From Escherichia coli (GTDB lineage Bacteria; Pseudomonadota; Gammaproteobacteria; Enterobacterales; Enterobacteriaceae), in assembly GCF_017348835.2 (NCBI RefSeq), contig NZ_CP071375.1: a stretch of 64,000 nucleotides of DNA, one strand, 5' to 3'. The notes under the pieces were generated by a model, which was not told where the DNA came from, did no database searches, and saw only the letters and a program-made list of their open reading frames with translations. Every line of letters begins with the position of its first letter. Position 1 is the first letter of the stretch. Positions 18,678 to 28,288 of the stretch are shown one piece after another. The translations under genes and the position numbers were made by a program.

Positions 18678-19388
18678 TGCCAGCTGTGGTTGCACAACTT
18701 CGTGGCTTAACGGCTTGCTGACCACGTAACGACCATTGACCACAGAAACGGTCGGTGGCTTACGGGTTTGCTCAAAGTAGTCGTAACCCGGCTTCAGTTG
18801 CTCCCAGAAGTCCTTAAAGTTGGAATATTTATGGCGCTTCATATTGGCGTCGGTCATGCGGAACGGGTAAATACTCACTTGCACGCTCGGCTGACCAAAC
18901 ACCAGCGCACCAGTAACGAACTGGAAGATCTCATCAATACCCTGATTGGTCATTGCGTAGCAGCCGATGGAAACACAATCGCCGTGGATCATCAGATATT
19001 TCCCTTCATAACCATGCGCACGGTCATAGGCATTGGGGAATCCAATATTAATCGCTTTGTAGTAACGGCTGTCTGGTTTTAATTGATTACGCTGGACGCT
19101 ATAAAACCCTTCCGGGCTTTTGAAATCGCCCTGACGCTGTTTTGGCCCTAAGCCGCCGGAATATTTACAGATTTTATAGCTGTCGAGCAGTTGATATTGC
19201 TCGCCCATTTTGACGTAGAGATCGAGCGTACGTTCTTCCTTGAAGATCTGGATGTAGACAGGGGATCCCATCAACTGCTGCTTATACTCTTTGCTCACTG
19301 GCGTGGTCGAGCTACTGCTGCCCAGCAAACCGGCAAACGAAACGCACGGGATCAACAACATCGCAAGAATTAATGCGATTTTACGCAT
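18648..19388 (-). CDS. yafK: L,D-transpeptidase-family periplasmic protein YafK
   Basis: 246-aa product with signal peptide. Confidence 0.85.
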
Positions 19389-19543
19389 ACTGCTTATTCC
19401 TTGATAAAACGGTTACACACGCCAGGACGGCAAAATGGATCCCAAATCGGAATAGTCTGGATTTGGAAGGCTCACATTATCACCAAAAGAGTTTTACGCA
19501 AGCCTGTCGGCGCAGGGTTTACAAATTTCATCGGAAGCGGGCT

Positions 19544-19822
19544 TTACCCAAAGAGCACCGCGTGAGTTCCAGTTCTCTCAAATCGTAAAAGTTTATCGGT
19601 AAGTTTGTAAATCAGGAGCCAGTCCGGTTCGACATGAGCATCGCGATAACCTTTCCATGAACCCTGCAGCGGGTGGTCTTTATAAACAGCTGGAAGCGGT
19701 AAAGTATTATTGATAAGAAGCGTCATAAGATATTTCAATTTATTCATATCATTATGACGCTTTTGTGCAAGTTTTACATCCTTTGAAAATTGTCCCGAGT
19801 ATTCAATATCCCTTTGAATCAT
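19544..19822 (-). CDS. yafQ: Type II toxin YafQ (RelE-like mRNA interferase)
   Basis: 92-aa product MIQRDIEYSGQFSKDVKLAQKRH... Confidence 0.9.
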   Translation of the reverse strand: MIQRDIEYSGQFSKDVKLAQKRHNDMNKLKYLMTLLINNTLPLPAVYKDHPLQGSWKGYRDAHVEPDWLLIYKLTDKLLRFERTGTHAVLFG

Positions 19823-19824
19823 AT

Positions 19825-20085
19825 TTAAATTCCTAATTTATCAAATAAATCATCGGCGTCTTTGGCCTTATGAACATCAACGCCAGCTTCGCTGTTTTTG
19901 ATTGATTGAATGGTTAATTGATTAGGCTCGCGTAAATCAAACGGCAATGCCTTTTCACGCGCGACCTTTGTGAGGGTTATGCGAACCAGGTCAGAGATGG
20001 TCAGCCCCATCCCGGCCAGTACGTCCGCCGCCTGATTCTTCAGATCTTCATCGATTCGGGCGCGAACAAATGCATTTGCAGCCAT
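19825..20085 (-). CDS. dinJ: Antitoxin DinJ
   Basis: 86-aa product MAANAFVRARIDEDLKNQAADVLAGMGLTISD... Confidence 0.9.
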   Translation of the reverse strand: MAANAFVRARIDEDLKNQAADVLAGMGLTISDLVRITLTKVAREKALPFDLREPNQLTIQSIKNSEAGVDVHKAKDADDLFDKLGI

Positions 20086-20101
20086 TGGGGTATCTCCTGT
20101 G

Positions 20102-20117
20102 CTGTATATATATTCAG
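20102..20117. promoter_or_regulatory. Putative LexA (SOS) box upstream of dinJ-yafQ
   Basis: CTGTATATATATTCAG, one mismatch to CTGT-N8-ACAG. Confidence 0.5.
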
Positions 20118-20294
20118 CTTGAATTGTAGCTCAATTGAGCAACAGCGGCAATTCATGAGCAATTCAATAAACTGATGTATTTACATAATTCACTGAAATA
20201 TATATGTTAATTTTATAATAATGGTTTATTAAGTTTGTTCAGAAACGATCCGGGATACACTGCAACATTAAAGCATGACCAGCCATTATTGAGT

Positions 20295-21044
20295 ATGTCC
20301 TTGCCGTCGATTCCATCCTTTGTATTGTCGGGATTACTGTTGATTTGTTTGCCGTTTTCTTCATTTGCCAGCGCCACCACATCACATATCTCTTTCAGCT
20401 ACGCCGCCCGCCAGCGGATGCAAAACCGTGCGCGTTTATTAAAACAGTACCAAATCCATCTGAAAAAACAGGCCAGCTATATTGTGGAAGGCAATGCCGA
20501 AAGCAGAAGGGCGCTACGCCTGCACAACCGCGAACAGATAAAACAGCACCCGGAGTGGTTTCCTGGTCCGCTCAAGGCGAACGACCGACGCTGGCAGGCG
20601 CTCGCAGAAAACAACCATTTCTTAAGCAGCGACCACCTGCATAACATCACCGAAGTGGCGATTCACCGCCTAGAGCAGCAGCTTGGCAAGCCTTACGTCT
20701 GGGGCGGCACGCGGCCCGATAAAGGCTTCGACTGTAGCGGGTTGGTTTTTTATGCCTACAACAAGATCCTTGAGGCGAAGCTCCCGCGCACGGCCAATGA
20801 GATGTATCACTACCGCCGGGCAACGATTGTGGCGAATAACGACCTGCGCCGGGGAGATTTGCTGTTTTTCCATATTCACAGTCGTGAGATTGCCGACCAT
20901 ATGGGGGTGTATCTGGGCGATGGGCAATTTATCGAGTCGCCACGCACCGGGGAAACCATTCGGGTAAGCCAGTTAGCTGAACCTTTCTGGCAGGACCATT
21001 TTTTGGGCGCGCGCAGGATTTTGACGGAAGAGACGATTTTGTAA
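20295..21044 (+). CDS. yafL: NlpC/P60-family lipoprotein peptidase YafL
   Basis: MSLPSIPSFVLSGLLLICLPFSSFA... signal/lipobox-like N-terminus; Cys-containing DCSGLV motif. Confidence 0.85.
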   Translation: MSLPSIPSFVLSGLLLICLPFSSFASATTSHISFSYAARQRMQNRARLLKQYQIHLKKQASYIVEGNAESRRALRLHNREQIKQHPEWFPGPLKANDRRWQALAENNHFLSSDHLHNITEVAIHRLEQQLGKPYVWGGTRPDKGFDCSGLVFYAYNKILEAKLPRTANEMYHYRRATIVANNDLRRGDLLFFHIHSREIADHMGVYLGDGQFIESPRTGETIRVSQLAEPFWQDHFLGARRILTEETIL

Positions 21045-21100
21045 ATGGGTAATATTGACGAACTGGCAAAAGGCCGGATGCCACACGGCATCCGACTTGT

Positions 21101-21457
21101 TTACATCTGGGCTGAAAACTCACGTTCTAAGACATCAACAATGAGCTGGTTTTTTGAAATGGAATGTTGTCTGGCGACGATGGTCAGCCGCGAATCAATG
21201 TGATGAGGAACACGAAGCGTCAGGCGTTTTTGCTCTTCTTCTTCACGAAAAGGGGCAATACCGTCCTCTTCACAATCCGCCATCCACTCATCCAGCGCGC
21301 TTTCGCCCTCACGATATAATGCCTCAATGCTTGTGGCTACAAAGTCACAATAACCGTTTACATTGAGGAATTTGCCGCGAAATGCATTGATATCGGCTTC
21401 AAATGTCACTGCGGCTGGTTGACCTTTAATTGTGATAATGTTCGATGCTTTATTCAT
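21101..21457 (-). CDS. HicB-like antitoxin (N-terminal HicB fold, C-terminal ribbon-helix-helix)
   Basis: 118 aa; ...FEADINAFRGKFLNVNGYCDFVATSIEAL...EDGIAPF... then RLTLRVPHHIDSRLTIVARQHSISKNQLIVDVLEREF. Confidence 0.5.
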   Translation of the reverse strand: MNKASNIITIKGQPAAVTFEADINAFRGKFLNVNGYCDFVATSIEALYREGESALDEWMADCEEDGIAPFREEEEQKRLTLRVPHHIDSRLTIVARQHSISKNQLIVDVLEREFSAQM

Positions 21458-21749
21458 AATCTACCCCTACACAGTTAACAAACCACTCCTTAAGACCTGC
21501 TACTGCGCCTTTATCCATCACATTCTTTGGATGTGGCTCATGTGTACTGAATTTGGTCGTTCCAATCTGAAATTTCCTTCTGGACCCATTGTTATTTTTT
21601 ATTGTTCCACCCACCGCTTTAATGAGCGCAACAACATCATCCCATTTAATTCCAGATTTTGGCGGCTCCGTCATTACATCGTCGAATGTTTTTCTATGGC
21701 GGGAGCCTAGCGCGCTGACCTTAATCATACTATCAATCCATGACATCAT
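21450..21749 (-). CDS. HicA-like toxin (start uncertain; may be shorter than the 99-aa ORF)
   Basis: ...GSRRKFQIGTTKFSTHEPHPKNVMDKGAVAGLKEWF resembles the HicA signature; stop overlaps the HicB-like start. Confidence 0.45.
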   Translation of the reverse strand: MMSWIDSMIKVSALGSRHRKTFDDVMTEPPKSGIKWDDVVALIKAVGGTIKNNNGSRRKFQIGTTKFSTHEPHPKNVMDKGAVAGLKEWFVNCVGVDYE

Positions 21750-21832
21750 TGTATGGTGTCATCGTAGTATGTTTGCAATGTGACGTCAATCAATGGTGTC
21801 AGATGCATGCAAAGCATGGAAAAGAATCCCCA

Positions 21833-23572
21833 TCAACTCAACGCCCCCATAATCTTCAACTCCAGCTCATCCGGCACTTCGTTATACGACAGCACATGCA
21901 GCCCCGGCGCAAACAACCTTGCGTAGCGCGCTAGCAAAGGGCGCAGCTGCGGCGGCACCAGCAGCACCGGGTCTTTCCCCGCCGCTTTCATCTGCTCCTT
22001 CACCTGCGGCATCGTGCTCTGGAACTGGTTGAGCATATTCGGGTCGACCGGCACGCTGTCGAGCATCACTTTGCCGCCCTGTTGCGCCTGATTCACCACG
22101 TTGGTCAGCAGATTTTCCAGCTCATTATTCAGCGTATACACCGTCAGCTCCTGCTTGCGAACGAAAGGATGAGTAATGCTGCGCCGCAGCGCCAGGCGCA
22201 CATCGGCCGCCAGCAGAATATGATCTTTGGTCACCGCGCTACTGGCGACCAGCACGGTGGCGATGGTGACGATGTCGCGCAGGGAAACGCCTTCGGTCAG
22301 CAGCGCACGGTACACTTTCAGCAACTGGCTGTAATTCAGCGCCGCGCTCAAATCCTCCGCCAGGCGCGGTGCCATTGACGACAAACGGTTATGCAACTGC
22401 GTGATGTCATCATAGTTAAACAAATCAGGAATATAACTGCGCACAATCTTATTCACATGGGTGGCAATCACGCTGGCGCTGTCGATCACCTGATACCCCA
22501 TATTCAGCGCCTTCGCTTTCTGCGCAGGCTGGATCCAGGTGACTGGCATCCCATACGCCGGGTCGTTCCCCAGCACGCCGTCTATCTCGCCGTAGGTTTC
22601 GCTGGAGGGCAGGGCCATCAGTTTATCCGCCGGAATATCCGCTTCATCAGCCTTAATGCCGTTGATGAAAATGGCGTACTGGCTGGGCTTGAGGCGGAAA
22701 TTTTCCCTAATGCGGATCTCCGGCAGCAGCACGCCGTTGCCGTCGGATATCACCTGCCGCACGCCGCGGATCCGCTGGGTGAGCGGGTTACCCTGTGCTT
22801 TATCGACCAGCGCTACTAGCTTGTAGCCAAGGCTTAAGCTGATGGGTTCGATCAGCGGAATGGTTTCCCAACTGACCTGTTGCTCGCTGGTTTCAGTGAT
22901 GGTGCGGGTCAGCGTTTCGAGGCTTTTCTCCTCCGCCTCTGCCGCCTGCGGCTGTTTGCTCATTCGCCAGCCGGTAAAGCCAAGCAGGGCGCTGAACATC
23001 AGGAACGGCAGGTGCGGCATCCCCGGCACCACTGCCAGCACAAACATAATTCCGGTAGCGGTGTAGAGCACCGACGGGCTTGCCAGCAGTTGGTTACGCA
23101 CGTCATGGGCGATATCGCCGTTGTCGCTGACGCGGGTGACGATAATCGCCGCTGCGGTGGAGAGCAGCAGGGAAGGGATCTGCGCCACCAGCCCATCGCC
23201 GATGGTCATCAGCACATATTGCTGGAAGGCGGCATCGGCGCTCAGGTTGTATTTGAAGATCCTGATACAGACGCCGCCGATCAGGTTGATCGCCAGAATC
23301 ATCATCCCGGCGATGGCATCCCCGCGCACAAACTTCGATGCCCCGTCCATCGCGCCGTAGAAATCGGCTTCGCTGGCGACATCTTTACGCCGGGTTTGCG
23401 CCTGCGCCTGGTTGATCAATCCGGCGTTAAGGTCGGCGTCAATCGCCATCTGCTTGCCGGGCATCGCGTCAAGGGTAAAGCGGGCAGAAACCTCGGAAAT
23501 ACGCTCGGCCCCTTTGGTGACGACAATAAAGTTGATTGTCAACAGCGTCAGTAAATCCGAGCGTGAAAGCAT
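21833..23572 (-). pseudogene. lfhA: FlhA-family export protein remnant lacking its N-terminal membrane domain (Flag-2 remnant)
   Basis: 579-aa product homologous to the FlhA central and C-terminal regions; first ~110 aa absent. Confidence 0.8.
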
Positions 23573-24302
23573 TATCGCCGCGCTGCACGGGCAGTCGATT
23601 TTTAACGGTGGTGGGCTGTCGCCGTTAAATAAAATCAGCCCGTCTCATCCGCCAAAACCTGCCACCGTGGCGGTGCCGGAAGAGACGGAGAAAAAAGCGC
23701 GTGATGTGAATGAGAAAACGGCGCTGCTGAAGAAGAAATCCGCCACCGAGCTTGGCGAGTTGGCAACCAGTATCAACACCATTGCCCGTGATGCGCATAT
23801 GGAAGCGAATCTGGAGATGGAGATTGTTCCCCAGGGATTACGCGTGCTGATTAAAGACGACCAGAATCGCAATATGTTCGAACGCGGCAGCGCGAAGATT
23901 ATGCCGTTCTTTAAAACGCTGCTGGTGGAGCTAGCGCCAGTGTTCGACTCGCTCGATAACAAAATTATTATTACCGGGCATACCGATGCGATGGCCTACA
24001 AAAACAATATCTACAACAACTGGAACCTTTCGGGCGATCGCGCGCTTTCAGCTCGTCGGGTGCTGGAAGAGGCCGGAATGCCGGAAGATAAAGTGATGCA
24101 GGTAAGCGCAATGGCGGACCAGATGCTGCTGGATGCCAAAAATCCGCAAAGCGCGGGCAATCGGCGTATTGAGATTATGGTGCTGACCAAAAGTGCGTCC
24201 GATACGCTGTATCAATACTTTGGTCAGCATGGGGATAAAGTGGTGCAGCCACTGGTGCAAAAGCTGGATAAGCAGCAGGTGCTTTCGCAGCGAACGCGTT
24301 AA
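23412..24302 (+). pseudogene. lafU: MotB/OmpA-like protein remnant (Flag-2 remnant); true start uncertain, ORF overlaps lfhA
   Basis: C-terminal OmpA-like domain (IIITGHTDAMAYKNNIYNNWNLSGDRALSARRVLEE); no N-terminal transmembrane segment. Confidence 0.65.
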
Positions 24303-24338
24303 ATGCTGAATCTTTACGCATTTCTCAAACCCTGAAAT

Positions 24339-24358
24339 CACTGTATACTTTACCAGTG
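24339..24358. promoter_or_regulatory. LexA box of the dinB promoter
   Basis: CACTGTATACTTTACCAGTG 15 bp upstream of the dinB ATG. Confidence 0.7.
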
Positions 24359-24372
24359 TTGAGAGGTGAGCA

Positions 24373-25428
24373 ATGCGTAAAATCATTCATGTGGATATGG
24401 ACTGCTTTTTCGCAGCGGTGGAGATGCGCGACAATCCCGCCCTGCGCGATATCCCTATTGCTATTGGCGGCAGCCGCGAACGTCGAGGGGTGATCAGCAC
24501 CGCCAATTATCCCGCGCGTAAATTTGGCGTACGTAGCGCTATGCCGACAGGGATGGCGCTCAAATTATGCCCACATCTCACCTTGCTTCCGGGGCGCTTT
24601 GACGCCTACAAAGAAGCCTCAAATCATATCCGTGAAATCTTCTCGCGCTACACCTCGCGCATTGAACCGTTGTCACTGGATGAAGCCTATCTCGATGTCA
24701 CCGATAGCGTCCATTGCCACGGTTCTGCGACCCTCATCGCCCAGGAAATCCGCCAGACGATTTTCAGCGAGCTGCAACTGACGGCGTCTGCGGGCGTGGC
24801 ACCAGTAAAGTTTCTCGCCAAAATCGCCTCCGACATGAATAAACCCAACGGCCAGTTTGTGATTACGCCGGCAGAAGTTCCGGCATTTTTACAAACCTTA
24901 CCACTGGCAAAAATCCCCGGCGTCGGCAAAGTCTCGGCGGCAAAACTGGAAGCGATGGGGCTGCGGACCTGCGGTGATGTACAAAAGTGTGATCTGGTGA
25001 TGCTGCTTAAACGCTTTGGCAAATTTGGCCGCATTTTGTGGGAGCGTAGTCAGGGGATTGACGAACGCGATGTTAACAGCGAACGGTTGCGAAAATCCGT
25101 CGGCGTGGAACGCACGATGGCGGAAGATATTCATCACTGGTCTGAATGTGAAGCGATTATCGAGCGGCTGTATCCGGAACTTGAACGCCGTCTGGCAAAG
25201 GTAAAACCTGATTTACTGATTGCTCGCCAGGGGGTGAAATTAAAGTTCGACGATTTTCAGCAAACCACTCAGGAGCACGTCTGGCCGCGGCTGAATAAAG
25301 CTGACTTAATCGCCACCGCGCGTAAAACCTGGGATGAACGCCGCGGCGGGCGCGGTGTGCGACTGGTGGGGCTGCATGTGACGTTGCTTGACCCGCAAAT
25401 GGAAAGACAACTGGTGCTGGGATTATGA
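24373..25428 (+). CDS. dinB: DNA polymerase IV
   Basis: 351-aa product [33 protein letters not shown]... Confidence 0.95.
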
Positions 25429-25877
25429 ATAACATACAAATAAGAAACTATCAGCCTGGCGATTTTCAGCAACTATGCGCTATTTTCATTAGAGCGGTTA
25501 TGATGACCGCCAGTCAGCATTATTCACCACAACAAATTGCCGCCTGGGCGCAGATTGACGAATCTCGCTGGAAGGAGAAACTCGCGAAATCACAAGTGCG
25601 GGTTGCAGTCATTAATGCACAACCGGTTGGTTTTATTTCCCGCATTGAACATTATATCGATATGTTATTTGTTGACCCTGAATACACCCGCCGTGGGGTT
25701 GCCAGCGCTTTGTTAAAACCTTGGATTAAGTCTGAATCCGAACTTACGGTGGACGCAAGCATAACCGCAAAACCCTTTTTTGAACGTTATGGTTTTCAGA
25801 CAGTTAAGCAGCAGCGCGTTGAATGCCGGGGAGCGTGGTTTACTAATTTTTCTATGCGATATAAACCGCAACATTAA
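25425..25877 (+). CDS. yafP: GNAT-family acetyltransferase YafP
   Basis: 150-aa product; ATG overlaps the dinB stop. Confidence 0.85.
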
Positions 25878-26183
25878 ATCCAGCTTGCAATGAAAATAAC
25901 GCCCGCCTGGTATGTGCGCGTTTTCTTATTCCACAAACTGCAAGGAGGTAAATCATGACAAATCCTTTATCAATGACTCTTTGCAGACCTTTCCAGGATT
26001 AATTCTTTTTTTCTTGCCCTGGATTCGTCTGCCATTTCCTGATTTTTAATATTTATATACTCTAAATAATTCGAGTTGCAGGAAGGTGACAAGCGAGTGA
26101 ATCGCCAGGAGCTTACTAAAGTAAGTGACTGGGGTGAACGAACGCAGTCGCAGTACATGCAACTTGAAGTATGACGAGTATAA

Positions 26184-26400
26184 ATGGAATGGTACATGGG
26201 CAAATATATTCGTCCCTTATCCGATGCGGTATTTACCATCGCATCTGATGACCTGTGGATCGAGAGTTTAGCGATCCAACAATTACACACCACGGCAAAT
26301 TTACCCAACATGCAGCGCGTAGTGGGGATGCCAGATTTACACCCCGGACGCGGCTACCCGATTGGCGCAGCGTTCTTCTCTGTTGGTCGTTTTTACCCGA
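26184..26400 (+). pseudogene. ykfJ: RtcB-family fragment
   Basis: [16 protein letters not shown] motif typical of the RtcB N-terminus; only ~70 aa before a frame change into prfH. Confidence 0.6.
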
Positions 26401-26828
26401 CAAGACGTCGCGGTAACAGTGCTGGAAACAGAAACAGGTCGTTACTCTGACACCCTGCGTTCAGCGCTGGTTTCTCTGAATGGCGACAACGCATGGGCAT
26501 TAAGCGAAAGCTGGTATGGCACTATTCAGTGGATTTGTCGGAGTCCGTATCGCCCACATCATGGGCGTAAAAACTGGTTTCTGGGCATTGGGCGTTTTAC
26601 TGCTGATGAGCAGGAACAATCCGACGCGGTCCGTTATGAGACGCTGCGTTCGTCGGGGCCGGGCGGTCAACATGTCAATAAAACCGATTCGGCGGTGCGC
26701 GCCACGCATCTGGCTACCTGGATTAGCGTGAAGGTTCAGTCAGAGCGCAGCCAGCATGCCAACAAGCGGCTGGCACGATTGCTGATTGAACCGCCCCGGG
26801 TTTCCTGGAGAGTGTTTTATCTGTGAAC

Positions 26829-27716
26829 TCAGGCTGCCAGATCATTATTTCCGATGGAAGCATAATAAGCTTTTTCTGCTTCTGCCGGAGGAATATGGCC
26901 CAGCCTTTCCAGCAATCGTCGATTGTTATACCAGTCCACCCACGTTAGTGTGGCCAGTTCCACTTCTGTCCGGTTTTTCCAGCTCTTACGGTGTATTACC
27001 TCCGCTTTGTAAAGACCATTGATGCTCTCCGCCATCGCGTTGTCATACGAGTCGCCAGTACTCCCTGTTGATGCCAGTAATCCGGCTTCCTTAAGCCGCT
27101 GCGTGTAGGCCAGCGATACATACTGAGAACCTTTATCACTGTGATGGATTGTGCCGGACGGCCGACGGGCCCACAACGCCTGCTCCAGTGCATCCAGCAC
27201 GAATGTTGTTTCCATGGATGATGAGACCTGCCATCCCACGATGTATCCGGCGAACACATCAATGATGAACGCCACATAAACGAAGCCCTGCCATGTGCTT
27301 ACCCAGGTAAAATCAGCCACCCACAACTGGTCTGGACGTTCTGCCACGAACTGACGGTTTACGCGGTCGCATGCGGCAACGGCTTTCCGGCTGACGGTAG
27401 TGCGGACCTTTTTACCCCGGAGAACACCGGCAAGTCCCATAACTGCCATGAGACGTGCCACAGTGCATCTGGCCACTCTGATACCTTCCCGTAACAACTG
27501 ACGCCAGACTTTACGCACACCGTATACCTGGTGATTTTCATCGTATACGCGCTGTATCTCTTTCTTCAGCCAGTCATCGTGCTGCGCACGGGCACTGCGT
27601 TTATCCGGATGATGTCGCTGTTGCTGACAATGGTAATACGTTGACGGGGCAATATGCAGTTCGCTGCATACCGGTCCGACCCCGTACTGCTCACGCAGCT
27701 TATCCAGCAGTGGCAT
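26829..27716 (-). CDS. IS629-like transposase OrfB (DDE catalytic domain)
   Basis: 295 aa; start overlaps the orfA stop, consistent with IS3-type frameshifting. Confidence 0.85.
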   Translation of the reverse strand: MPLLDKLREQYGVGPVCSELHIAPSTYYHCQQQRHHPDKRSARAQHDDWLKKEIQRVYDENHQVYGVRKVWRQLLREGIRVARCTVARLMAVMGLAGVLRGKKVRTTVSRKAVAACDRVNRQFVAERPDQLWVADFTWVSTWQGFVYVAFIIDVFAGYIVGWQVSSSMETTFVLDALEQALWARRPSGTIHHSDKGSQYVSLAYTQRLKEAGLLASTGSTGDSYDNAMAESINGLYKAEVIHRKSWKNRTEVELATLTWVDWYNNRRLLERLGHIPPAEAEKAYYASIGNNDLAA

Positions 27717-28042
27717 TATTTTTTCCAGAGGCGGTCGAACTCCGCCTTCGCAAAATAAGCGGAAGCCTGGCGAAGGATATCGTTACTGCGGCGCAGTTCA
27801 CGATTTTCACGTTCCAGCTCTTTCAGACGCTGACGTTCAGCGGTGGTGAGTCCACCATCACCACTCCCGGTATCCCGCTCATGCTGGCGAACCCAGACAC
27901 GCAGAGTCTCCGGCGTACAGCCAATCTTTGGGGCAATGGAACAAATTGCCGCCCACTGTGAGTCATATTCATCCTGACTTTCCAGAACCATACGAATCGC
28001 CCGCTGACGGACTTCGGGGGAAAAACGAGTATTTTTAGTCAT
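27716..28042 (-). CDS. IS629-like transposase OrfA
   Basis: 108 aa, [26 protein letters not shown]..., helix-turn-helix. Confidence 0.85.
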
Positions 28043-28288
28043 CCTGTTTACCTCTTTCTCAGGGAGTTTAGTCTCCAGGATTTCCGGGGCGGTTCAGATT
28101 GCCTGGAAGCTGGAGCAACAGCAACAGGAAAATAGCGCAGTGCTGAAATCGCAGCGGCGAATGTTCCATCACCAGATTGAACGTGGCAACCCGCGACGAA
28201 CGTTTACAGGGATGGCTTTTATCGAAGGATAATGAAGGATGAAACTGCCGGAAGGCGATTAAACGCCATCCGGCAGCAAATCAAATAA

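What the first reader, a model, noticed from the sequence alone, without database searches (positions are those of the whole stretch)
21833..24302. Flag-2 lateral flagellar cluster reduced to lfhA and lafU remnants
The FlhA homologue lacks its N-terminal membrane domain and the MotB-like ORF lacks a transmembrane start. The two overlap head to head around 23412-23572, consistent with a large deletion that joined the two end genes of a former gene cluster.
Basis: partly seen in the sequence, partly recalled or inferred. Interest (0 to 1): 0.3.

Follow-up and report, generated by a model that had tools for sequence, protein, structure and literature searches.

The report
Known Flag-2 flagellar deletion scar
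This is the well-known scar that most E. coli carry where a 35-kb second flagellar gene cluster was lost; it is ordinary here, but the same breakpoint recurs to the nucleotide in several other genera, always on each species' own sequence, and that is not explained.

Summary
Window 21833-24302 holds the 3' 1704 nt of lfhA (minus strand) joined at 23534-23537 to the 3' 766 nt of lafU (plus strand). An intact Flag-2 locus has 35,011 bp between these two points. LfhA has lost residues 1-130, which is four of about eight membrane helices and not the whole membrane domain. LafU has lost residues 1-53, including its only membrane helix and the conserved Asp. The 161-nt "head-to-head overlap" is an ORF-calling artefact: each frame stays open a little way into the antisense of the other gene.

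This scar is already published (Ren et al. 2005, cited by PMC6993521 and PMC3032704; K-12 fhiA/mbhA). It is present in 4086 of 5426 complete E. coli genomes.

The follow-up was less ordinary. The same junction occurs in E. albertii, Citrobacter, Kluyvera, Atlantibacter, a Cedecea-like lineage and a metagenomic lineage. In each it sits on native sequence, with only 2-3 nt of microhomology. The remnants show dN/dS of 0.02-0.04. Intact and deleted E. coli strains can be identical over 6 kb across the junction. I could not decide between one old deletion moved by recombination and a recurrent precise excision.

The parts
21833..23536 (-). lfhA remnant: codons 131-697 plus the stop of the Flag-2 FlhA paralogue, with no internal stop or frameshift
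   Evidence: PGAP marks it as a pseudogene ('missing N-terminus') in the 100%-identical strain PE164.
23534..23536 (.). Deletion junction: GAT is shared by both parents. The intact left side reads GTTGAT|GATCATC and the intact right side reads GTGGAT|TGTCAAC.
   Evidence: The junction is identical in every deletion-bearing E. coli locus fetched and in 4086 of 5426 genomes.
23537..24302 (+). lafU remnant: last base of codon 53, then codons 54-307 plus the stop of the Flag-2 MotB paralogue. The periplasmic linker and OmpA-like domain are kept; the membrane helix with its Asp is lost.
23537..23572 (-). Fortuitous 12-codon leader (ATG at 23572) that extends the lfhA ORF into antisense lafU. It is not part of the gene.
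   Evidence: The ATG is absent in the Citrobacter and Kluyvera scars, which read TAT instead of CAT on the plus strand.
23412..23536 (+). Fortuitous upstream extension of the lafU ORF through antisense lfhA. It includes the GTG at 23517 that PGAP uses as the start of its 261-aa 'LafU'.
   Evidence: The GTG is GTC in Kluyvera.
21101..21749 (-). hicA (21450-21749) and hicB (21101-21457) toxin-antitoxin pair flanking the scar on the left. K-12-type strains carry rayT plus REP arrays at this position.
24373..25428 (+). dinB, the right-hand neighbour. Its SOS-box-like CTGTATACTTTACCAG lies at 24341-24356, between the lafU stop and dinB.
   Evidence: The SOS box is recognised from my own knowledge and was not tested.

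Best explanation
The region is the canonical Flag-2 deletion scar of Escherichia coli, the lfhA'/'lafU pseudogene pair known as fhiA/mbhA in K-12. In the ancestral arrangement a cluster of about 35 kb and some 40 genes for a second, lateral-type flagellum lay between yafL and dinB. lfhA and lafU were its outermost genes, both transcribed outward.

A deletion with endpoints inside these two genes removed everything between codon 130 of lfhA and codon 53 of lafU. It left the two 5'-truncated genes back to back, with no promoter, no start codon and no first membrane helices. Both are therefore most likely inert remnants.

This strain inherited the scar; it did not make it. What is shown: the deletion, its endpoints, what each protein lost, and that the same junction is shared by three quarters of E. 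coli. What is inferred: that the remnants are not functional. How the shared junction arose is not settled. My two leading readings are about equally likely. Either one old deletion has been kept and moved between backgrounds by homologous recombination with intact alleles, or the same precise excision happens again and again.
For: Domain content comes, and residues lost. The same junction is present in K-12-type, O157:H7 and B2 strains and in 4086 of 5426 genomes.

The scar is published. PMC6993521 and PMC3032704 describe the lfhA-lafU deletion, citing Ren et al. 2005. PMC11420993 describes it in E. albertii.

Evidence that the remnants are not functional:
- There is no conserved start codon across genera.
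- A nonsense mutation (E93*) sits in the lafU remnant of strain Z1323CEC0019, which otherwise differs from an intact strain at only 2 further sites in 5 kb.
- There is a 10-nt gap in the lfhA remnant of strain AF5.
- There is a 22-nt deletion in the lfhA remnant of the E. albertii type strain.
- An IS421 lies between the two aligned pieces of the scar in strain OkiPb01708.
Against: The remnants do not look like old pseudogenes. Among deletion-bearing E. coli, dN/dS is 0.024 for lfhA (dS 0.22) and 0.044 for lafU, the same as among intact copies and as dinB. Even singleton changes are 6 non-synonymous to 52 synonymous. All 567-568 lfhA codons are open in Citrobacter, Kluyvera, Atlantibacter, the Cedecea-like lineage and the metagenomic scar. 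PGAP annotates the lafU remnant as a normal CDS. These facts need either very young deletions or steady exchange with intact alleles, so a simple 'one ancient accident followed by decay' does not fit.
Confidence: 0.93

Rival explanations
1. Recurrent precise excision. Intact Flag-2 loci lose the cluster again and again by one and the same event, site-specific or structure-directed. The scar in different strains, species and genera would then be many independent products and not one inherited allele.
For: - The same codon-level junction (…I|INF in LfhA, …WI| in LafU) is present in E. coli, E. albertii, Citrobacter sp., Kluyvera ascorbata, Atlantibacter subterranea, 'Enterobacter sp. Ap-916' (Cedecea-like) and a metagenomic lineage. 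It persists although synonymous sites are saturated (dS above 1) and the lafU-side nucleotides differ completely in two lineages.
- Each scar sits on its own species' haplotype right up to the junction. Atlantibacter deleted versus intact differs at 16 of 1704 nt, evenly spread. Kluyvera differs at 8 of 487.
- Deleting ATCC 8739's cluster in silico gives a sequence 100% identical over 3000 bp to at least 11 deletion-bearing genomes. Against strain KFu022 there are 0 mismatches over 6167 bp spanning the junction.
- A second, 5%-divergent haplotype (strain 06_3235) has a deleted twin with 3 mismatches in 5000 bp.
- In E. coli only about 11 of 5426 genomes have neither this junction nor the endpoint sequences, so other ways of losing these endpoints are almost unseen.
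- In E. coli, Citrobacter and Atlantibacter the right breakpoint lies in the loop of a stable hairpin. For E. coli dG is -11.9 kcal/mol with z = -4.3. The Citrobacter copy carries a compensatory pair change.
Against: No mechanism is known. The microhomology is only 2-3 nt. No recombinase is annotated in the cluster. No reciprocal circle or tandem junction occurs in 5426 genomes. The hairpin and the 19/26 inverted similarity between the two endpoints are not conserved in the Cedecea lineage (13/27 and no palindrome), and the hairpin is weak in Kluyvera. The left endpoint has no significant structure (z = -0.08).
Confidence: 0.4
2. One old deletion, kept as a presence/absence polymorphism and moved by homologous recombination. 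The junction arose once. Because both arms remain homologous to intact alleles, recombination can move the deletion (or the cluster) between backgrounds and can overwrite the arms right up to the junction. The remnants then stay 'fresh' through selection acting while they sit in intact loci.
For: - A single event needs no special mechanism.
- Deleted and intact alleles are fully interleaved, with dS of about 0.21-0.22 both between and within the two classes. For example the lfhA remnant of 2012EL-2448 (deleted) differs from that of 06_3235 (intact) at 1 of 1704 nt while their lafU remnants differ at 27 of 765.
- Recombination breakpoints fall at the junction. N1420 versus FAH shows 0 mismatches in 2500 bp on the right arm and 48 on the left arm, starting 12 nt from the junction.
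- Four-gamete failures occur within 12-66 nt of the junction.
- The 25-30 nt next to the junction are almost invariant, so a short conversion patch would leave no trace.
- Scars occur mainly in taxa that also hold intact loci (PMC6993521).
Against: It requires both alleles to have persisted through the splits of at least six lineages whose arms now differ by 20-30%. The lafU arms of the Cedecea-like and metagenomic lineages cannot be aligned with E. coli's next to the junction, so cross-lineage transfer by homology is excluded there. It also requires repeated transfer of a 35-kb heterology without any flanking markers on either side (0 of 6167 and 3 of 5000 mismatches).
Confidence: 0.45
3. The two truncated ORFs are functional genes kept by selection in their own right: a shortened FlhA-like membrane protein and a cytoplasmic OmpA-like protein.
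For: dN/dS is low and the frames are open across genera. PGAP calls lafU a CDS. The lfhA ORF has an ATG 12 codons upstream of the junction in E. coli and Atlantibacter.
Against: The start codons are accidental and not conserved. Neither remnant has its own promoter region. The only sigma-70-like match upstream of the lfhA frame overlaps its ATG. LafU without a helix or signal peptide cannot reach the periplasm, where its domain acts (inference). Nonsense, frameshift and IS disruptions occur. No site is fixed differently between deleted and intact alleles within 450 nt of the junction. In the gene tree the scars group with intact alleles of their own species and not with each other.
Confidence: 0.04

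Closest known systems
lfhA'/'lafU (fhiA/mbhA) Flag-2 deletion scar of E. coli K-12, O157:H7 and Shigella (Ren et al. 2005 J Bacteriol 187:1430, as cited in PMC6993521 and PMC3032704)
   Same: Same chromosomal position (between yafL and dinB), same two truncated genes, and the same junction to the nucleotide. The alignment to a K-12-type locus is ungapped and contiguous.
   Different: This window carries hicAB where K-12 has rayT plus REP arrays, and it lacks yafNO. Its lfhA remnant is a rare allele: about 95% identical to the other sampled E. coli loci, with only 2 of 5443 records at 99% or more.
Intact Flag-2 loci (E. coli 042, W, ATCC 8739, 06_3235; Citrobacter, Kluyvera, Cedecea)
   Same: The flanking genes and the 3' parts of lfhA and lafU are collinear and 94-98% identical within E. 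coli.
   Different: Intact loci hold 35.0-35.3 kb and about 40 more genes between the two breakpoints, with full-length LfhA (697 aa) and LafU (307 aa).
Element excisions with a fixed junction (Bacillus skin/sigK, Anabaena nifD element) and IS-flanked 'precise excision' of Tn10/Tn5 (own knowledge)
   Same: Loss of tens of kb with a reproducible junction seen in independent lineages.
   Different: Here no element-encoded recombinase is annotated. There are no long terminal inverted repeats and only 2-3 nt of direct repeat. No excised-circle junction was found. Excision also destroys two genes where those elements restore one.

Membership tests
Flag-2 deletion scar (lfhA'/'lafU pseudogene pair) | Lies at the Flag-2 site, between yafL (with rayT or hicAB) and dinB | tested here: met
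   Annotation of the 100%-identical strain PE164, of a K-12-type strain, and of intact loci.
Flag-2 deletion scar (lfhA'/'lafU pseudogene pair) | 5'-truncated lfhA joined back to back to 5'-truncated lafU, with the rest of the cluster absent | tested here: met
   Split alignment to the intact locus with 35,011 bp missing.
Flag-2 deletion scar (lfhA'/'lafU pseudogene pair) | Junction identical to that of K-12 and other sequenced E. coli | tested here: met
   Ungapped contiguous matches in all deletion loci fetched. A 300-nt junction probe covers at least 80% in 4086 of 5426 genomes.
FHIPEP / FlhA export-gate family (as a working member) | Complete N-terminal membrane domain (about 8 helices) plus the cytoplasmic domain | tested here: not met
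   The Pfam match begins at profile position 99 of 657. Residues 1-130, with four hydrophobic helices, are absent.
MotB-type stator protein (as a working member) | N-terminal membrane helix with the conserved Asp, the plug, and the OmpA-like peptidoglycan-binding domain | tested here: not met
   Only PF00691 (OmpA) matches. PF13677 (MotB_plug) and the helix VAFADFTLAMMALFMTLWI are missing.
Site-specific excision element | Element-encoded or linked recombinase | tested here: not met
   None is annotated among the genes of the four fully covered intact loci. A distant or host-encoded enzyme is not excluded.
Site-specific excision element | Conserved recombination sites at both ends in all lineages that show the junction | tested here: inconclusive
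   The lfhA side (CTGATGATC|ATYAAC) is conserved. The lafU hairpin is present in E. coli, Citrobacter and Atlantibacter, but it is weak in Kluyvera and absent in Cedecea.
Site-specific excision element | Reciprocal product (circle junction) or de novo excision observed | tested here: not met
   No genome of 5426 holds the predicted circle junction. De novo excision cannot be tested with these tools.

The most novel reading that the evidence does not exclude
The Flag-2 'scar' is not one inherited accident. It is the product of a recurrent, precise excision of the whole 35-kb lateral-flagellum cluster, by a hot-spot or programmed mechanism, that happens independently in many strains and in at least six enterobacterial lineages. 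The excision always falls between the same two codons and uses only 2-3 nt of homology. This would make loss of the second flagellum a fast, one-step switch and would explain why the remnants never look decayed.
Probability: 0.4. Interest if true: 0.7.

Novelty: already known. Interest (0 to 1): 0.33.

Why it matters
As a feature of this window it does not matter much. It is a textbook pseudogene pair, and its main practical use is as a marker that the strain is Flag-2-negative.

The follow-up matters more. The identical junction occurs across genera, always on native haplotypes, with remnants that show the substitution pattern of working genes. A simple one-off deletion does not explain this. 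Either a gene-cluster presence/absence polymorphism has been maintained and shuffled by recombination since before these genera split, with 'pseudogenes' kept intact by proxy. Or enterobacteria have a precise, repeatable way of discarding a 35-kb flagellar system. Both can be tested with existing strains, and both bear on how costly surface organelles are gained and lost.

Tried and rejected
1. The original paper (Ren et al. 2005, PMC545627) is not held. Its content is cited only through later papers.
2. Circle or tandem junction of an excised element: no full-length match in 5426 E. coli genomes.
3. A hairpin or inverted repeat as a general cause. The lafU hairpin is significant in E. coli and Citrobacter, and the two endpoints share 19/26 inverted similarity in E. 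coli (my own count on sequences). Both features fail in the Cedecea lineage, and the left endpoint has no structure. I therefore do not claim it as the mechanism.
4. RayT, the HUH transposase encoded next to lfhA in K-12-type strains, as the agent. The gene is absent from that position in this window, in the 06_3235-type loci and in Atlantibacter. This was not pursued further.
5. Integron-type, GATC-cut or target-site-duplication readings of the junction. By inspection, the sequences do not fit.
6. Functional remnants: rejected on start-codon non-conservation and on observed nonsense, frameshift and IS disruptions.
7. P0342, a 271-aa 'LafU', looked like another scar but is a mis-started gene inside an intact cluster.
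8. I considered a test of neutrality on very recent mutations in scar-only clades. I dropped it because too few sequences can be fetched here.

Full report
**Observation.** The ORF list shows a 579-aa ORF on the minus strand (21833..23572) and a 296-aa ORF on the plus strand (23412..24302). Pfam assigns the first to FHIPEP (E 7.9e-188). The match starts at profile position 99 of 657. Pfam assigns the second to OmpA (E 2.9e-14).

**Context.** The window is E. coli chromosome and is 100% identical over this stretch to strain PE164. The gene order is dpaA(yafK)-yafQ-dinJ-yafL-hicB-hicA-[lfhA']-['lafU]-dinB-yafP-rtcB'-prfH'-IS3. K-12-type strains have the same order, except that rayT replaces hicAB and yafN-yafO lie after dinB. 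In Flag-2-positive strains the same neighbours enclose about 40 flagellar genes, from flhA(lfhA) at one end to motA-lafU at the other.

**Junction.** BLAST against the intact locus of strain 06_3235 splits the window. Positions 19084-23536 match one end and 23531-26080 match the other. Base-by-base comparison shows that identity to the lfhA side ends at 23536 (…AAAGTTGAT). Identity to the lafU side begins at GAT|TGTCAAC, so GAT (23534-23536) is common to both parents. As a six-base repeat the match is imperfect: GTTGAT versus GTGGAT. The missing DNA is 35,011 bp in that strain and 35,308 bp in ATCC 8739.

The 161-nt "head-to-head overlap" is therefore not a property of the genes. The lfhA frame happens to stay open for 12 codons into antisense lafU and meets an ATG there. 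The lafU frame stays open for 42 codons into antisense lfhA, where PGAP picks a GTG at 23517.

**What was lost.**
- LfhA lacks residues 1-130 of 697. By hydropathy these hold four membrane helices. Helices at about 205-311 and the whole cytoplasmic domain remain.
- LafU lacks residues 1-53 of 307. These include its only helix (VAFADFTLAMMALFMTLWI) with the Asp that MotB-type stators need (the role of the Asp is from my own knowledge). Full-length LafU proteins carry PF13677 (MotB_plug) and the truncated ones do not.
- Neither remnant keeps its start codon or any upstream region.

[quoted passage not shown] 2005. It reports such pseudogene pairs in 531 of 4028 Enterobacterales, including all 76 Flag-2-negative E. 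coli it examined. PMC3032704 names the K-12 remnants fhiA and mbhA. PMC11420993 describes the same 2.5-kb remnant in E. albertii. The finding is thus already known. The primary paper is not held.

**Census.** A 300-nt probe across the junction is covered at 80% or more in 4086 of 5426 complete E. coli genomes. Sequences from the deleted side of the two breakpoints occur in 1329 genomes. Only about 11 genomes have neither. Loss of these endpoints by any other junction is therefore almost unseen in E. coli.

**Evolutionary signature in E. coli.** I extracted the remnant-equivalent parts from 7-8 deletion-bearing and 5-6 intact loci.
- All sampled frames but one are open; strain AF5 has a 10-nt gap.
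- Mean pairwise dN/dS among deletion-bearing copies is 0.024 for lfhA (dS 0.22) and 0.044 for lafU. Among intact copies it is 0.027 and 0.036, and for the neighbouring dinB it is 0.022 and 0.019.
- Singleton changes in deleted copies are 6 non-synonymous to 52 synonymous.
- Deleted and intact alleles are interleaved. The lfhA remnant of 2012EL-2448 (deleted) differs from that of 06_3235 (intact) at 1 of 1704 nt, while their lafU remnants differ at 27 of 765. Sites 12-66 nt from the junction fail the four-gamete test against the deleted/intact state.

A scar that arose once and then drifted would not look like this.

**Twins.** I deleted the cluster in silico from three intact strains and searched for the result.
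- ATCC 8739 gives 100.0% identity over 3000 bp to at least 11 deletion-bearing genomes. Against KFu022 there are 0 mismatches from -3920 to +2246 (6167 bp) and 4 in the next 7391 bp.
- 06_3235, whose arms differ from ATCC 8739's by 58 of 1704 (lfhA) and 29 of 765 (lafU), has a deleted counterpart (Z1323CEC0019) with 3 mismatches in 5000 bp. One of the three is a nonsense codon (E93*) in the lafU remnant.
- FAH has a counterpart (N1420) with 0 mismatches in 2500 bp on the right arm and 48 on the left arm. The first of those lies 12 nt from the junction.

The deleted and intact states therefore interconvert on unchanged local haplotypes.

**Other genera.** A degenerate junction pattern found the scar in species representatives of E. 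albertii, Citrobacter sp. MGH106 and Kluyvera ascorbata. It also matched three other contigs, two of them labelled as MAGs, that are 94.6-95.6% identical to the window.
- The alignment shows the same junction, with third-codon-position differences within 4-12 nt on both sides.
- The Citrobacter and Kluyvera lfhA remnants are open for all 567 codons. They differ from E. coli's with dS above 1 and dN/dS of 0.02-0.04.
- The E. albertii remnant has a 22-nt frameshifting deletion.

Protein searches revealed further truncated FlhA ORFs whose N-termini are antisense-lafU leaders followed by INF[IV]VVTKG. Their DNA shows the same codon-level junction in Atlantibacter subterranea, in 'Enterobacter sp. 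Ap-916' (Cedecea-like) and in a metagenomic lineage. In the last two the nucleotides on the lafU side are quite different. The junctions read GTTAAT|CGTCAAC, GTTAAT|TATGGGG and GTTAAT|TCTAAGC, so the microhomology is only 2-3 nt.

In Atlantibacter and in the Cedecea lineage the scar has the same neighbours as the intact locus of that lineage. The Atlantibacter scar differs from a conspecific intact locus at 16 of 1704 nt, evenly spread, with the first difference 117 nt from the junction. Kluyvera differs at 8 of 487.

**Explanations for the shared junction.**

(A) One old deletion, kept as a polymorphism and moved by homologous recombination.
- This needs no special mechanism.
- It fits the breakpoints at the junction and the near-invariant 25-30 nt on each side, which would hide short conversion patches.
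- It requires both alleles to have persisted through the splits of at least six lineages. Homology-based transfer between them is excluded where the lafU arms cannot be aligned.
- It also requires repeated transfer with no flanking markers.

(B) Recurrent precise excision.
- This fits the twins, the native haplotypes in every lineage and the near-absence of other junctions.
- In E. coli, Citrobacter and Atlantibacter the right breakpoint lies in the loop of a stable hairpin. For E. coli dG is -11.9 kcal/mol with z = -4.25. The Citrobacter copy carries a compensatory change. The two endpoints also share 19/26 inverted similarity.
- These features are weak in Kluyvera and absent in Cedecea, and the left endpoint is unstructured.
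- No recombinase is annotated in the cluster and no circle junction exists in the genomes.

(C) Functional remnants.
- This is contradicted by the non-conserved accidental start codons.
- It is also contradicted by the nonsense, frameshift and IS disruptions, and by the lack of any site fixed differently between deleted and intact alleles.

I rate A at about 0.45, B at about 0.40 and C at about 0.04.

**Verdict.** As a feature it is already known and is ordinary for E. coli. The origin of the junction is the unexplained part. It is identical across genera, sits on native sequence, and has remnants that carry the substitution pattern of working genes. Simple experiments on existing Flag-2-positive strains could settle it.

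Noticed in passing
window 21101-21749: A hicA/hicB toxin-antitoxin pair lies between yafL and the lfhA remnant, where K-12-type strains carry rayT plus REP arrays. Both cassettes occur with both the deleted and the intact Flag-2 state. hicAB plus intact is seen in 06_3235 and JNE070796; rayT plus intact is seen in ATCC 8739 and strain 2/0. The two polymorphisms are therefore independent.
   Followed up: partly
window 25425-25428: The dinB stop overlaps the yafP start (ATGA) and the yafN-yafO toxin-antitoxin pair of K-12 is absent. The same arrangement is seen in ATCC 25922, strain 2/0 and 06_3235.
   Followed up: no
window 26150-28050: rtcB and prfH are reduced to fragments and an IS3-family element (transposase ORF 26829..27716 and beyond) abuts them. 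In the identical strain PE164, phage tail genes follow. Strains 06_3235, FAH and 2/0 have intact rtcB-prfH here.
   Followed up: no
window 21833-23536: The lfhA remnant of this window is a rare allele. Only 2 of 5443 records are at least 99% identical over the 3-kb probe. It carries 19 changes seen in no other sampled allele (1 non-synonymous, 18 synonymous), as if it came from an unsampled working copy.
   Followed up: partly
intact loci, e.g. L005 (ATCC 8739) lafU codons 46-58; right arm retained at window 23537-23550: A 27-nt near-palindrome lies inside lafU (TGACGCTGTGGA-TTG-TCAACAGCGTCA; DNA fold -11.9 kcal/mol, z = -4.25), with the deletion breakpoint in its loop. The Citrobacter copy keeps the pairing through a change on both arms (CTG to CTA and AAC to AAT). 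The structure is weak in Kluyvera and absent in Cedecea. Its role, if any, in lafU mRNA or DNA is unknown.
   Followed up: partly
L036 (strain Z1323CEC0019) lafU remnant codon 93; L011 (strain AF5) lfhA remnant; L015 (E. albertii NBRC 107761) at the position of window 22581-22602: Three scars have begun to decay: a nonsense codon, a 10-nt gap and a 22-nt deletion respectively. In strain OkiPb01708 an IS421 lies between the two aligned pieces of the scar.
   Followed up: partly
L004 (strain JNE070796) 19112-21829: A type II restriction endonuclease and a cytosine methyltransferase are inserted between flgM and flgA inside an intact Flag-2 cluster. This is one of several cargo insertions. Others are a RelE/HTH pair in L004 and L006 and hypothetical genes in L013 and L014.
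   Followed up: no
window 24341-24356: CTGTATACTTTACCAG, between the lafU stop and dinB, matches the LexA-box pattern (CTGT-N8-ACAG with one mismatch). It is presumably the dinB SOS box. I recognised it from memory and did not test it.
   Followed up: no
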